IMG/VR virus record: IMGVR_UViG_3300029448_008324
Location: 1 to 64,000 of that record
Reading direction: 5' to 3' (one strand)
DNA from: a virus
Length of the DNA: 64,000 nt
The position numbers were made by a program, and so were the translations under genes. A model generated the notes under the pieces. That model was not told where the DNA came from, ran no database searches, and saw only the letters and a list, made by a program, of their open reading frames with translations. Each line of letters begins with the position of its first letter. Position 1 is the stretch's first letter. This document shows positions 9,068-62,747 of the stretch, piece by piece.

Positions 9068-9475
9068 TTAGCGTTTTTTAAACATATTGCCATGCACTCT
9101 GACACGAATGTGTCCGTTGTAGTAGGCATCGGATTCCAGCACTTTTCTAGCAAACTGTTCTCTGGCTTCTACGTAGGACAGTTCTGCTTTGTTTTTGCAG
9201 TAAAACAGTATTTCACGAGTAAATTTGTCACGACCCAACTGTTCAACATCTTCTGTGAGTGCATCTGACGATCCATAGTATTCGCGCCAGTCTGATTCCA
9301 CTTTGTATCTGCGTCTGTTTTTTCTGCCCTTGAGTGGAGGGCGGGACTTTTTGAACTCCACAAGTTTTTTGCCAATGTATTTCCTACCTGTTTGGTTGTT
9401 GGTGATTTCATACACAAATCCCACACATCCTTCAGGTATTTCATCAACAGTTTTGCCTTGGTATTGCCATGTCAT
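9068..9475 (-). CDS. GIY-YIG endonuclease
   Basis: GFVYEITN..TGRKYIGKK, YYGSS, FTREIL and YYNG motifs. Confidence 0.88.
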   Translation of the reverse strand: MTWQYQGKTVDEIPEGCVGFVYEITNNQTGRKYIGKKLVEFKKSRPPLKGRKNRRRYKVESDWREYYGSSDALTEDVEQLGRDKFTREILFYCKNKAELSYVEAREQFARKVLESDAYYNGHIRVRVHGNMFKKR

Positions 9476-9999
9476 TGTTAAGTATATACGCCATGCACCA
9501 AGCCTCTCCCAACATAGTTGATTCCATTGTCAATTGGATGGAAACATTTGTGGAAGTGCCACATCCATCATTTGGCAACATGCCTCCCTGTCCATATGCT
9601 CGTCAGTTTAGACTGCAGAACAAAGTAAAAATTGTTGAATGTCATCAAGCAATATGGGATGAATGCAAATCACAAATGCGTGAATGGACAGACGAGTGGG
9701 AAGCAGTTATACTTGCGTCAACATTCAGAGAAATTTCCACAGGACTTTTGTCAGAACGCATTCAAAAGATAAACAAACATTTCAAACACTATGATCTCGT
9801 GGCTTTGGAAGATCATCCTGATAGTGCTGAATTCATTGATGGTGTCAAAATGAATCACGGTGAACTTGTGCTTGTGGTTGTGCAAAGACTTGCAAGACTA
9901 AACCAATTCAGCAAAAATCTACAAGCAACCAAATACTATCATCGCTGGAGTGAAGAAAATCTTGATGATGTGGTGAGTTGGCGTTTCAGCGATTCTTAG
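9469..9999 (+). CDS. Hypothetical protein with PCPYA motif (DUF1415-like); true start possibly 9493
   Basis: W...FVE.P.....PPCPYA, EDHP and VQRL motifs. Confidence 0.5.
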   Translation: MSLLSIYAMHQASPNIVDSIVNWMETFVEVPHPSFGNMPPCPYARQFRLQNKVKIVECHQAIWDECKSQMREWTDEWEAVILASTFREISTGLLSERIQKINKHFKHYDLVALEDHPDSAEFIDGVKMNHGELVLVVVQRLARLNQFSKNLQATKYYHRWSEENLDDVVSWRFSDS

Positions 10000-10717
10000 G
10001 CTTGCTCAATCCACAGATGGATTGATAAACACTTTCTAAATCTTCTACATCCTCAACAAAACAGTCTGCACGGATGTGTTGCTCATACAGTGCAAGATCT
10101 TGGCTCCATTCACGGCCAGTCCACCATTCAAAAGCAGGAATTTTAGATTTGTATCGGCAAGACTCATCATAGGACGCCCCCAGATAAAACCAATTGTATC
10201 CTTTGGCATGTGCTGAGCGAATTTCATGGTCCATAGAAAATTTTCCCATGTGCAGTTGAGGATCTCGGTAGTCCCATGCATACTGCCAATTGTCAATGGA
10301 ATGTCCGTATTTGGTCCACACAGACCATGCTACCAATTTGTTATCATAATAGTAACAGTGGAATGTTTCCTTGTCTGATATGCCAAACTTGTTAAACATA
10401 AATGAATCATGGAATCCATTGTGCTGGATGAATTGATCATACACATCTTCTAGTAGGGTTTGATGTTTGATGGCAAACGATCCGGACCATTTTTCCACAG
10501 TCACTCCTTTGCGTTGTTTGAACTTAGGCGCTGTGTCGATGTATTTTTTGATGTTGATGCGAGATGACCTTACTTGTGACCAACGATCACCTATGTCAAT
10601 GTATCCTTGAGCCAGTGCTTGTTCTTGTTCTTCTGGTTCAACATCTGCAAACACCTTAACCCACTGCATGTCATACTTGTCTAATCTACCATATGGATGT
10701 TCAAACCAAATTTTCAT
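9986..10717 (-). CDS. Aminoacyl(Arg/Leu)-tRNA-protein transferase-like GNAT protein (ATE/Bpt-like)
   Basis: C-terminal WDY..P.L.MGKFS..HEI..A...G..WFYLG.SY...CRYK resembles the ATE_C domain. Own TTGACT-N17-TATAAT promoter at 10752-10724. Confidence 0.65.
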   Translation of the reverse strand: MKIWFEHPYGRLDKYDMQWVKVFADVEPEEQEQALAQGYIDIGDRWSQVRSSRINIKKYIDTAPKFKQRKGVTVEKWSGSFAIKHQTLLEDVYDQFIQHNGFHDSFMFNKFGISDKETFHCYYYDNKLVAWSVWTKYGHSIDNWQYAWDYRDPQLHMGKFSMDHEIRSAHAKGYNWFYLGASYDESCRYKSKIPAFEWWTGREWSQDLALYEQHIRADCFVEDVEDLESVYQSICGLSKPKNR

Positions 10718-11817: not shown

Positions 11818-12180
11818 GTGTATATATTTATAGACATGGACATTTACCATATTTTTGCTGATCACCATGACGGCACTGATGCATACACTTTTGTAAAAAA
11901 GATGAGTGTGTTTCTTGATGAGATGGTTGCACTTGGCAAAATGGAATCACATCGTATCATGAGAATGAAGTTGGGATTCCGATCAATGGATTTGCCAGAG
12001 TTTCACATCATGATGGAATTCAAAAACATGCAACAGTTGGATGATGCTATGACAGCTGTGATACGAAATGAAAAAAATATCGACGAATCCCATGTTACTT
12101 TTAATTCACTGGTCAACGTGGATACCATTCAACATTTCTTATACAGAGACTTTCCAGACCAGATCGACGACAGCAAATAA
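11818..12180 (+). CDS. Hypothetical protein (DUF6614-like ferredoxin-fold)
   Basis: RIMRMKLGFRSMDLPEFHIMMEF..MQQLD and LYRDFPD motifs. Confidence 0.5.
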   Translation: MYIFIDMDIYHIFADHHDGTDAYTFVKKMSVFLDEMVALGKMESHRIMRMKLGFRSMDLPEFHIMMEFKNMQQLDDAMTAVIRNEKNIDESHVTFNSLVNVDTIQHFLYRDFPDQIDDSK

Positions 12181-12199
12181 TCTACTGACATAAAATAGT

Positions 12200-12595
12200 G
12201 TGCTAGGCAATCAAGGCAAACTTCAAAAACATTTAAGGCTTTCATAGCATCTTTGGTAATAGAGAACTACTCCATGAAGAATGGCGGCGAATCTCTTGAT
12301 GCACAAGGCAAAATGATGTGGCACTGGCAAGAAAAAGATCCACCCACAGTCTGTTTGTAAATTATTCAATCAAGGTGCAAACAGATCGCGTTGTATAGAA
12401 TGAGCTAACGGGCACAGCACAACCCCCCGACGTTGAGTAGCGAGATTGGATGACTGCGATACAAACGTGATGTATCAAAGTGATAGTTCTGCTTAACAGC
12501 AGAATTATGACTGCTCATCAACGTGATGACGACAAACTTTACTTCGTAAAAGAAATGCTTGAGCGCGAGCGACAAGCGATTGACGAAGTCAATCA
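12200..12595 (+). ncRNA. Candidate structured non-coding RNA or cis element
   Basis: No credible ORF. At least 7 hand-identified stems, three of them with G-U pairs valid only on the + strand (see findings). Confidence 0.55.
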
Positions 12596-12596
12596 A

Positions 12597-12806
12597 TCAG
12601 CGATGTTGCTTGTGAAACTTTGTAATGAACTCTTGCAGTTCAACATCAGGACGCGAATCTTGACAGTGTGACTCTAAAAATGTACTCATCATTTCAGCAA
12701 CTGCTTTGGGTGAATGATTCATCAACATGGACTTGATTACCATGGTGCACTGTGAGTGTAGATCCTGTTTGTTGATCACAGCATGTTTTGATTTGACTAT
12801 TGCCAT
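12597..12806 (-). CDS. Hypothetical protein (69 aa)
   Basis: ORF with TAAGTA late-like box upstream. Confidence 0.5.
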   Translation of the reverse strand: MAIVKSKHAVINKQDLHSQCTMVIKSMLMNHSPKAVAEMMSTFLESHCQDSRPDVELQEFITKFHKQHR

Positions 12807-48981: not shown

Positions 48982-49028
48982 ACAAACTACAGTGATACAC
49001 ACTAGGCAAACAAAAGGAGGCTTACATT

Positions 49029-50018
49029 ATGGCAACACTGGCTGATATAAGAGCCAAACTCCAGGCTCAAAGTTCTAAACCACAAGGTGAAGGACAAATT
49101 GGAGACAACGCAATATATCCACATTGGAATATTCCCGAAAACACAGAAGCAGTACTTAGGTTCTTACCAGACAAGGATCCAAACAATACTTTTTTCTGGA
49201 CTGAAAGAGCAATGATTAAACTGCCTTTCAATTCAATCAAAGGAGATGCAACATCAGGTCCTGTAATGGTGCAAATACCATGCATGGAAATGTATGGTGA
49301 TGCATGTCCGATACTTGCAGAAGTAAGACAATGGTTCAAAGACAAATCATTAGAAGACTTAGGCAGGAAATATTGGAAGAAGCGTTCTTACATCTTCCAA
49401 GGATTTGTATCTACATCTCCACTACAAGAAGATGCACCAGAAAATCCAATTAGAAGATTTATCATTGGTCCACAGATCTTTAACATTATAAAGTCTGCAT
49501 TAATGGATCCTGAGATGGAAGATCTTCCAACAGACTACACCAGAGGTGTTGACTTTAGAATCAACAAAACTACAAAAGGTGGTTATGCTGACTATTCAAC
49601 ATCAAAATGGTCAAGAAAAACTTCTCCATTGACTGAAGAACAAAACAAATCCATTGAAACACATGGTTTACACAATCTTGGTGACTTCCTTCCTAAGAAG
49701 CCAGGCGAAGTGGAAATTAAAGTGATGGAAGAAATGTTCCGAGCATCAGTGGATGGTGAGCCCTATGACGCAGAAAAGTATTCACAGTACTTTAGGCCTG
49801 CAGGACTTAAAGCGCCTGTCACAGGCAGTGGCACAGTGGCACAGCCACAGCCACAAGCAGTAAAAGTAGAAACTGCACAACCAACTGTGACTGCGACACC
49901 CGAGCCTGCTCCGGCTCCACAACCAGAACAACCTTTAGAACAACCTGCCGCAACAAACGGTAGTAATTCCAAAGCAGAAGATATTCTGGCAATGATCAGA
50001 GCAAGACAACAAAAATAA
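49029..50018 (+). CDS. gp32: Single-stranded DNA-binding protein (gp32-like)
   Basis: LRFLPD, CPIL, KYWKKRSY and GGYADYSTSKW motifs; directly upstream of UvsX. Confidence 0.85.
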   Translation: MATLADIRAKLQAQSSKPQGEGQIGDNAIYPHWNIPENTEAVLRFLPDKDPNNTFFWTERAMIKLPFNSIKGDATSGPVMVQIPCMEMYGDACPILAEVRQWFKDKSLEDLGRKYWKKRSYIFQGFVSTSPLQEDAPENPIRRFIIGPQIFNIIKSALMDPEMEDLPTDYTRGVDFRINKTTKGGYADYSTSKWSRKTSPLTEEQNKSIETHGLHNLGDFLPKKPGEVEIKVMEEMFRASVDGEPYDAEKYSQYFRPAGLKAPVTGSGTVAQPQPQAVKVETAQPTVTATPEPAPAPQPEQPLEQPAATNGSNSKAEDILAMIRARQQK

Positions 50019-62672: not shown

Positions 62673-62747
62673 GCGGCGGTGCTGGAATGGTTAGACAGGC
62701 ACAACTTAATTGTGATTTTGTGAGTTCGAGTCTCACCCACCGTACCA
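62673..62747 (+). pseudogene. Degenerate tRNA-Leu(UAA)-like RNA
   Basis: Leu-type D arm TGCTGGAATGGTTAGACAGG, intact T arm and ACCA, but 5-nt anticodon loop CTTAA and no long variable arm. Confidence 0.65.

What the first reader, a model, noticed from the sequence alone, without database searches (positions are those of the whole stretch)
12200..12535. Unannotated multi-stem structured RNA candidate
Seen, in an ORF-free gap of an otherwise densely packed genome: stems TGTGG(12317)/CCACA(12344) around a GAAAAAG loop; TCTGTTTGTA(12350)/TGCAAACAGA(12376); CGGG/CCCG (~12409-12429); CGTTGAGTAG(12431) pairing with CTGCTCA-TCAACG(12511-12523); and, enclosed by it, GATACA/TGTATC (12458-12476) and ATAGTTCTGCT-TAAC-AGCAGAATTAT (12483-12508). 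Three stems carry a non-Watson-Crick pair that is G-U on the + strand and would be A-C on the - strand, which points to selection on a + strand RNA. I see no tRNA, tmRNA, RNase P or group I hallmarks. Inference: a novel phage ncRNA such as a ribozyme, scaffold or replication-primer RNA.
Basis: partly seen in the sequence, partly recalled or inferred. Interest (0 to 1): 0.8.

Follow-up and report, generated by a model that had tools for sequence, protein, structure and literature searches.

The report
Twin-box structured RNA of aquatic phages
The gene-free gap holds a real gene for a knotted non-coding RNA of about 390 bases that is in no RNA catalogue and is common in uncultured ocean and lake giant phages. 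Its unfolded parts repeat the short motif found in front of the phage's DNA-replication genes, so it may act as a decoy for whatever controls them.

Summary
Window 12181-12596 lies between two converging genes and encodes no conserved protein.

**What it is**
- It is one member of an RNA family that I collected from 72 distinct full-length viral and metagenome sequences.
- On 37 diverged members, ten helices and two pseudoknots are kept by compensatory changes: 85% of cells paired against 30-40% for slid controls, and 0 of 500 shuffles reach the observed covariation.
- Wobble pairs place the RNA on the + strand.

- Four of six are confirmed.
- One is specific to the window's clade.
- The long enclosing stem is not supported.

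**Known families**
- No Rfam family matches.
- None of five cultured jumbo phages has a copy.

**Two unusual features**
- A "twin box": the same 6-7 nt word appears twice, identical within each RNA but different between clades, with no internal complement.
- Two to six single-stranded AGGC boxes per RNA.

The AGGC box is also repeated in the leaders of the phage's gp32 (SSB) gene and its DnaE-like polymerase gene, across more than 50 relatives of each. This points to a decoy or sponge role, which is inferred and not shown.

This scan has met the same family before on other DNA, noted as "twin-box RNA". Function remains untested.

The parts
11836..12180 (+). Upstream flanking gene, DUF6614 protein (not part of the RNA)
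   Evidence: Pfam PF20319, E 1.6e-23
12189..12197 (+). Promoter-like A/T box (CATAAAATA type). It resembles the ATAAATA-type box found just upstream of many genes of this phage.
   Evidence: The scan lists a -35/-10 pair ending at 12196. Matching boxes stand at the same place in other members, and 15 of 79 have a full TTGAC-N17/18-TAnnnT. ATAAATA-like words are enriched upstream of start codons.
12203..12596 (+). The RNA gene (ends approximate; conserved structured core 12243-12530)
   Evidence: Family alignments, covariation, strand
12205..12239 (+). Single-stranded 5' leader with three AGGC boxes (12205, 12214, 12236)
   Evidence: 241 AGGC in the single-stranded segments of 72 members against 18.6 +/- 4.5 in shuffles
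12247..12302 (+). Domain 1: stacked helices 12247-51/12298-302, 12261-65/12292-96 and 12272-75/12281-84, around an invariant internal loop
   Evidence: 98-100% of cells paired, with compensatory changes. The invariance of the loop is partly by construction, because it was the search pattern.
12306..12309 (+). Fourth AGGC box, in the linker after domain 1
12317..12348 (+). Hairpin H4 with an A-rich loop (12317-21/12344-48 and 12325-27/12340-42)
   Evidence: 92-94% paired, compensatory changes
12349..12386 (+). Hairpin H5. Its loop bases 12367-71 form pseudoknot PK1.
   Evidence: 10 of 11 pairs change on both sides
12444..12448 (+). 3' strand of PK1, pairing with 12367-71
   Evidence: 100% paired; all 5 pairs covary
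12390..12429 (+). Compact H-type pseudoknot: H6 12390-94/12419-23 interleaved with H7 12409-12/12426-29, with nearly invariant loops
   Evidence: 98-100% paired, compensatory changes
12437..12457 (+). Helix H10 (12437-40/12454-57), enclosing the PK1 3' strand
   Evidence: 93% paired. The alternative partner 12511-14 fits equally well.
12450..12472 (+). Twin box copy a (variable 6-mer at 12466-71), in the loop of the clade-specific hairpin 12458-76
12483..12508 (+). Hairpin H8
   Evidence: Inner 8 bp nearly always paired, compensatory changes
12507..12529 (+). Twin box copy b (variable 6-mer at 12522-27)
   Evidence: In 36 of 37 members the same 6-mer stands at both boxes. Seven different words occur across clades. 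No internal complement, even with G-U allowed.
12557..12594 (+). Two terminal hairpins: one with a GNRA loop (12557-77), then 12578-94. Likely a terminator region shared with the converging gene.
   Evidence: Equivalent hairpins in other clades, there followed by a U run. No canonical terminator was called in the window. Conserved also in more distant loci.
12597..12806 (-). Converging flanking gene, conserved 69-aa protein of unknown function (not part of the RNA)
   Evidence: tblastn hits at 36-39% identity in distant loci; no Pfam match
48985..49028 (+). Leader of the gp32 (SSB) gene, with AGGC boxes at 49004 and 49018: a putative shared operator
   Evidence: gp32 identified by Pfam PF08804; sequence. 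154 AGGC in the 90 nt upstream of 53 distinct homologues against 5.7 +/- 2.2.

Best explanation
Window ~12203-12596 (+) is a stand-alone gene for a non-coding RNA of about 390 nt. It belongs to an uncatalogued family of uncultured marine and freshwater T4-related jumbo phages.

Shown:
- The RNA folds into a three-helix 5' domain, several hairpins, a loop-to-strand pseudoknot and a compact H-type pseudoknot.
- It leaves single-stranded a 5' leader and a linker that carry AGGC boxes (four here).
- It also leaves single-stranded two copies of a clade-variable 'twin box'.

Inferred:
- The same AGGC box is repeated, right up to the start codon, in the leaders of the phage's gp32 (SSB) and DnaE-like polymerase mRNAs.
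- The RNA therefore most likely works in trans as a decoy. In the manner of CsrB, it would compete with those leaders for an AGGC-box-binding translational regulator. That regulator could be a phage protein, possibly gp32 itself, or a host factor.
- This would tune the synthesis of replication proteins.
- The folded core and the twin boxes would give stability and bind a further, still unknown, partner.
For: That it is a real structured RNA gene:
- The gap is more conserved than its flanking genes, and indels break every frame in 85-91% identical relatives.
- 72 distinct full-length members were collected.
- Covariation: 85.1% of cells paired against 30-40% for slid controls; 438 double-change cells against 138 +/- 11; 0 of 500 shuffles reach the observed value.
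- G-U exceeds A-C by 113 to 20.
- A core model built without the retrieval pattern finds 34 pattern-positive viral loci (all main-clade ones tested; 2 of 5 short-clade) and none of the chance hits.
- There is one copy in the phage fragment.
- A promoter-like box stands at a fixed distance.

That it may be a decoy:
- AGGC is enriched 13-fold in the RNA's unpaired segments.
- The leader of the DnaE-like gene has 4 boxes in 94 nt. This is conserved in 58 distinct relatives: 149 AGGC against 10.6 +/- 2.9.
- gp32 leaders in 53 distinct relatives hold 154 AGGC against 5.7 +/- 2.2.
- Most other gene leaders in the window lack repeated boxes.
Against: - No binding factor has been identified. No RegA homologue is present in the 108-kb fragment, which is about 29% of the genome.
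- The AGG part of the box could simply be a weak Shine-Dalgarno element.
- A simple sponge would not need about 70 near-invariant core positions, two pseudoknots or the twin boxes, so the decoy idea explains only part of the molecule.
- The box is 4-5 nt long, so sharing it does not prove a shared partner.
Confidence: 0.4

Rival explanations
1. It is a large 'ornate' RNA whose job lies in its fold. It would be either a ribozyme or a self-assembling RNA-only particle like ROOL or GOLLD, and PK1 could even form between molecules. On this reading the AGGC boxes are incidental.
For: About 390 nt, two pseudoknots, and many near-invariant junction and loop bases across clades whose flanking proteins are only 25-45% identical. 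Phage-borne and of unknown function, like GOLLD and ROOL.
Against: No similarity to any Rfam ribozyme or large RNA at E <= 10. No self-complementary loops were found. The 13-fold AGGC enrichment and its match to mRNA leaders would be left unexplained.
Confidence: 0.2
2. It is a guide- or template-like RNA. The two twin boxes would pair with two copies of an outside nucleic-acid sequence (phage or host RNA or DNA), or would serve as repeated template ends.
For: The two boxes are identical within each RNA, differ between clades (seven words), and have no internal complement. That pattern is expected if both pair with the same external sequence.
Against: The complement is not enriched in the 108-kb fragment: 0 copies of the 9-mer and 1 of the 8-mer, close to expectation. 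No nuclease, recombinase or reverse transcriptase is consistently adjacent. The spacing between the boxes varies and is not a multiple of three.
Confidence: 0.2
3. It is a cis-acting element: a riboswitch-like leader, a 3' UTR of the DUF6614 gene, or merely a long bidirectional terminator.
For: In one freshwater clade an ATE-like transferase gene follows on the same strand about 45 nt after the last hairpin. The terminal hairpins abut the stop codon of the converging 69-aa gene.
Against: In the window and most clades no same-strand gene follows. The upstream neighbour varies (DUF6614, p355, ATE-like). A promoter-like box is kept in front of the RNA itself. Terminators do not need 390 nt with pseudoknots.
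Confidence: 0.07
4. It is not an RNA feature at all. Alternatives are small protein genes, a DNA-level site (origin, packaging site), or chance hairpins.
For: The single-sequence fold energy is no better than shuffles. ORFs of 35-63 codons exist in the gap.
Against: Frames are broken by 1-nt indels in close relatives, and the start codon of the 54-codon ORF is not conserved. Compensatory changes and the G-U bias fit RNA on one strand.
Confidence: 0.03

Closest known systems
'Twin-box / twin-word structured RNA' of aquatic T4-like and jumbo phages
   Same: It appears to be the same family. Family members L072 and L055 share short words with those findings. The notes also describe a length of about 390-440 nt, two pseudoknots and a duplicated variable word.
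   Different: The window's own sequence matched no earlier window, so this is a further clade. I did not reproduce two of their claims, a likeness to Polynucleobacter-1 and a member in E. coli phage 121Q.
CsrB/RsmZ-type protein-sequestering RNAs (E. coli, Pseudomonas)
   Same: There are several copies of a short motif in one RNA. The same motif overlaps the ribosome-binding region of target mRNA leaders.
   Different: The motif is AGGC in unpaired stretches, not GGA in hairpin loops. There are only 2-6 copies. The RNA also has a large invariant pseudoknotted core. No CsrA-like partner is known, and there is no sequence homology (Rfam).
GOLLD (RF01998) and ROOL (RF03087), large ornate RNAs of phages and prophages
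   Same: It is a large, intricately folded, phage-borne RNA with its own promoter and unknown function.
   Different: There is no sequence or structure match at E <= 10. It is shorter (about 390 nt against about 580-800 nt). It is not beside tRNA genes. Multimer formation was not tested.
Translational operator of T4 gene 32 mRNA (gp32 autoregulation; established T4 biology)
   Same: The RNA's unpaired 5' part resembles the leader of this phage's own gene 32: an 11-of-12 match around the first box.
   Different: The RNA is a separate gene about 37 kb away from gene 32. The T4 operator relies on a pseudoknot plus an unstructured A/U-rich tract, not on AGGC boxes.
Candidate structured RNAs predicted from IMG/VR (Fremin et al. 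2023, PMC10690425)
   Same: They come from the same data source, and that pipeline could have picked up sub-motifs of this RNA.
   Different: Those candidates are 29-151 nt long. None is described as a 390-nt double-pseudoknot RNA. The supplements are not held, so overlap could not be checked.

Membership tests
Any Rfam 15 family (tRNA, tmRNA, RNase P, group I/II introns, ribozymes, riboswitches, GOLLD, ROOL, HEARO, pRNA and the rest) | A covariance-model score at or near the family's gathering threshold | tested here: not met
   There is no hit in the gap at gathering thresholds. At E <= 10 the only hits are noise: Methylobacterium-1 at 17.8 bits against a 40-bit threshold. Nine other members give nothing relevant at E <= 5, and L072 gives nothing at E <= 10.
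Polynucleobacter-1 RNA motif (RF01718) | A match to the RF01718 model | tested here: not met
   There is no RF01718 hit at E <= 10 in the window or in a freshwater member. The paper lists the motif only as Burkholderiales, fresh water/estuary.
Twin-box structured RNA (this scan's working name) | An RNA of about 390-440 nt with the same short variable word twice and pseudoknots, in aquatic T4-related phages | tested here: met
   Twin box, pseudoknots, and sequence look-ups with family members that hit those notes.
CsrB-like sequestering RNA | Multiple copies of the regulator's binding motif in the RNA | tested here: met
   2-6 AGGC boxes per RNA, a 13-fold enrichment.
CsrB-like sequestering RNA | The same motif at the translation start regions of target mRNAs | tested here: met
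   Leaders of the DnaE-like and gp32 genes.
CsrB-like sequestering RNA | A protein that binds the motif and is titrated by the RNA | not testable with these tools
   No candidate was identified. RegA (PF01818) is absent from the 108-kb fragment.
GOLLD/ROOL-type self-assembling RNAs | Homo-oligomer formation through intermolecular loop contacts | not testable with these tools
   PK1 could be intra- or intermolecular. Covariation cannot tell the two apart.
Riboswitch or cis-regulatory leader | A constant position upstream of a same-strand regulated gene | tested here: not met
   The downstream gene converges on the RNA in the window and in most clades.

The most novel reading that the evidence does not exclude
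These phages run their own Csr-like post-transcriptional circuit. An AGGC-box-binding regulator gates translation of the replication proteins (SSB and the DnaE-like polymerase). This RNA is the titrating arm of the circuit. Its clade-specific twin boxes dock two copies of a second, co-evolving partner, so that the RNA integrates two signals.
Probability: 0.25. Interest if true: 0.85.

Novelty: new variant of a known kind. Interest (0 to 1): 0.72.

Why it matters
Large, intricately folded RNAs that are missing from catalogues are rare, and past examples have led to new biology.
- This one is widespread in uncultured ocean and lake jumbo phages.
- It has an unusual signature: two short words that always change together.
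- It now has a concrete, testable link to the control regions of the phage's replication genes.

If the decoy idea holds, it would be a phage-encoded counterpart of the bacterial Csr/Rsm sequestration systems. It would also show how giant phages time the making of their replication machinery.

Tried and rejected
**Searches that found nothing**
- blastn of the gap and its surroundings against 50,697 phage records: no match, even at E <= 1. One further query used wrong coordinates and is void.
- Core model R1 and 5'-domain model R2 against the cultured jumbo phages Phosso, PA5oct, CBB, 121Q and RaK2: only noise (E 0.28-0.58, at different places, one inside a CDS).
- The 120 pattern hits returned from bacterial and archaeal genomes: none has the flanking family features. 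They are chance matches in GC-rich DNA.
- Literature searches by topic and by conserved sequence words: nothing describing this RNA.
- Internal complement of the twin box, with G-U allowed: none. Its complement in the 108-kb phage fragment is not enriched.

**Readings considered and dropped**
- A coding reading of the - strand frame 12806-12405 through an in-frame TGA: dropped, because frames break in close relatives.
- RNase P, group I and HDV-like readings of the H6/H7 pseudoknot: the topology does not fit and there is no Rfam support.
- A dedicated link to the ATE-like transferase, DUF6614 or the 69-aa gene: their order and presence vary between clades.

**Not available**

Full report
**Setting.** The window is the first 64 kb of a 108-kb IMG/VR viral contig that CheckV rates about 29% complete.
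- It has T4-type portal and baseplate genes.
- Its portal protein is about 50% identical to those of cultured jumbo phages such as Phosso, PA5oct and CBB.
- The gap 12181-12596 lies between a DUF6614 gene (+, 11836-12180) and a converging 69-codon gene (-, 12806-12597).
- The 69-codon gene is real, because it is conserved at 36-39% identity in distant loci.

- The quoted stems are present.
- The fold energy of the single sequence is unremarkable on both strands: z about -1.
- Three close relatives (85-91% identical) carry the whole gap. It is better conserved than the flanking proteins.
- One-base indels break every reading frame on both strands, including the 54-codon + strand ORF and the - strand frame that reads through a TGA.
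- The gap is therefore non-coding and under nucleotide-level selection.

**The family.**
- Two invariant strands of an internal loop served as a search pattern. In viral contigs it returned 60 loci. About 45 of them share the flanking helices and downstream core. The rest are chance hits in GC-rich coding DNA.
- Altogether 72 distinct full-length sequences were collected.
- A covariance model of the core (R1, 12386-12523) does not contain the search pattern. It recovered 34 pattern-positive viral loci — all main-clade ones tested, but only two of five short-clade loci at E <= 0.01 — and none of the chance loci.
- A shorter sub-clade lacks the middle hairpins. It keeps the 5' domain, the twin boxes with the hairpin between them, and the terminal hairpins.

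**Structure.** On 37 sequences that differ by more than 4% (alignment A3), the proposed structure was counted pair by pair.

| Measure | Observed | Control |
|---|---|---|
| Cells forming a standard pair | 85.1% | 30-40% when partners are slid by 1-3 columns |
| Cells with a change on both sides | 438 | 138 +/- 11 in shuffles; 0 of 500 reach the observed value |

Well-supported elements, in window coordinates:
- H1 12247-51/12298-302
- H2 12261-65/12292-96
- H3 12272-75/12281-84
- H4 12317-21/12344-48, plus 12325-27/12340-42
- H5 12349-59/12376-86
- PK1 12367-71/12444-48 (100% paired; all five pairs covary)
- H6 12390-94/12419-23, interleaved with H7 12409-12/12426-29, forming an H-type pseudoknot
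- H10 12437-40/12454-57
- H8 12486-93/12498-505

Weaker or unsupported elements:
- The 3' region aligns poorly, so its hairpins are less certain.
- In relatives, the segment 12430-38 forms a small tetraloop-capped hairpin instead (read by eye).

G-U pairs outnumber A-C pairs 113 to 20, so the RNA is read from the + strand.

**Transcription unit.**
- An A/T-rich box stands at a fixed distance before the first AGGC box in all clades.
- 15 of 79 distinct upstream regions have a textbook -35/-10 pair. The window and its clade have a CATAAAATA-type box.
- That box resembles the ATAAATA-like words enriched directly upstream of many genes of this phage.
- Two hairpins close the unit. In other clades the last one is followed by a U run.
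- In the window they abut the stop codon of the converging gene, and no canonical terminator is called. The 3' end is therefore uncertain, between about 12530 and 12596.
- The RNA gene always converges on a T4-baseplate-like gene 0.6-2.2 kb away. Its other neighbours (ATE-like transferase, p176, DUF6614, p355, the 69-aa gene) vary in order, strand and presence.

**Twin box.**
- Segments 12450-72 and 12507-29 are direct repeats.
- In 36 of 37 members the same 6-mer stands at both places, about 52-60 nt apart.
- The word differs between clades; seven versions occur.
- No member has an internal complement, even when G-U pairs are allowed.
- The complement is not enriched in the phage fragment.
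- The simplest reading is that both copies meet the same outside partner. That partner is unknown.

**AGGC boxes.**
- The unpaired leader and linker hold 2-6 AGGC boxes per RNA (four here). That is 241 in 72 sequences against 18.6 +/- 4.5 in shuffles.
I tested this.
- The window's gp32 gene (49029-50018) has two boxes in its leader.
- Homologous leaders in 53 distinct contigs hold 154 AGGC in 90 nt, against 5.7 +/- 2.2.
- Outside the window, the leader of a DnaE-like polymerase gene has four boxes in 94 nt.
- In 58 distinct relatives there are 149 AGGC in 110 nt, against 10.6 +/- 2.9. The last box lies 1-8 nt before the AUG.
- Other gene leaders in the fragment rarely have more than one box.
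- This shared motif is the basis for the decoy hypothesis. The binding factor is unknown, and no RegA homologue is present in the fragment.

**Comparison with what is known.**
- No Rfam 15 family matches the window or ten other members, even at permissive thresholds. This includes Polynucleobacter-1, GOLLD, ROOL, RNase P and tmRNA.
- Models R1 and R2 find nothing credible in five cultured jumbo phages, including 121Q.
- The one large survey of IMG/VR structured RNAs reports only motifs of 29-151 nt. Its supplements are not held.

**Earlier notes of this scan.** The same family has been reported several times on other DNA as a "twin-box" RNA.
- I agree with those notes on the main reading.
- I could not reproduce the 121Q or Polynucleobacter-1 links.
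- I extended the gp32 lead to a second replication gene.

**Limits.**
- Members were retrieved with a pattern from domain 1, so the invariance of that loop is partly by construction.
- The alignments are from MAFFT and were not fitted to the structure.
- Related sequences inflate shuffle-based statistics. The slid controls are not affected by this.
- Expression could not be examined.
- Only about a third of the phage genome is available.

Noticed in passing
window 62673-62744 (+): A fourth tRNA-like gene scores 42 bits against Rfam tRNA (E 6e-8) when the stretch is searched alone. Both ARAGORN and the whole-window gathering scan missed it. Its anticodon arm looks irregular, with a short loop.
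   Followed up: partly
G000 101947-103732 (-), locus L325:448-2233: A DnaE-like DNA polymerase III alpha gene (Pfam DNA_pol3_alpha and finger domains) lacks an obvious PHP N-terminus in this ORF. Its leader is built almost entirely of AGGC boxes. A 73-codon ORF lies just upstream.
   Followed up: partly
window 9469-10717: A p176 gene and a converging ATE_C/GNAT-like (aminoacyl-tRNA transferase-like) gene travel with the RNA in many contigs, but their order and strand vary. In one freshwater clade the ATE-like gene starts about 45 nt after the RNA's last hairpin, on the same strand.
   Followed up: partly
Freshwater members, e.g. L073 and L040, about 100-60 nt upstream of the conserved GAACTACT loop of domain 1: An inverted repeat (ATAATAT..ATATTAT) overlaps the promoter-like box, and a conserved TATTTAAACTCAAGAA word lies about 45 nt further upstream. 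This may be an operator.
   Followed up: no
gp32 leaders of related contigs, e.g. L424 and L430 (about 90-45 nt before the start codon): A conserved 10-bp hairpin precedes the unstructured AGGC-box tract. The layout recalls the structured nucleation element plus single-stranded tract of the T4 gene 32 operator.
   Followed up: no
G000 68802-69447 (locus L326): My simple gene caller left a 646-nt 'intergenic' stretch here. It looks like part of a GDP-mannose-dehydratase-like gene whose frame is interrupted.
   Followed up: no
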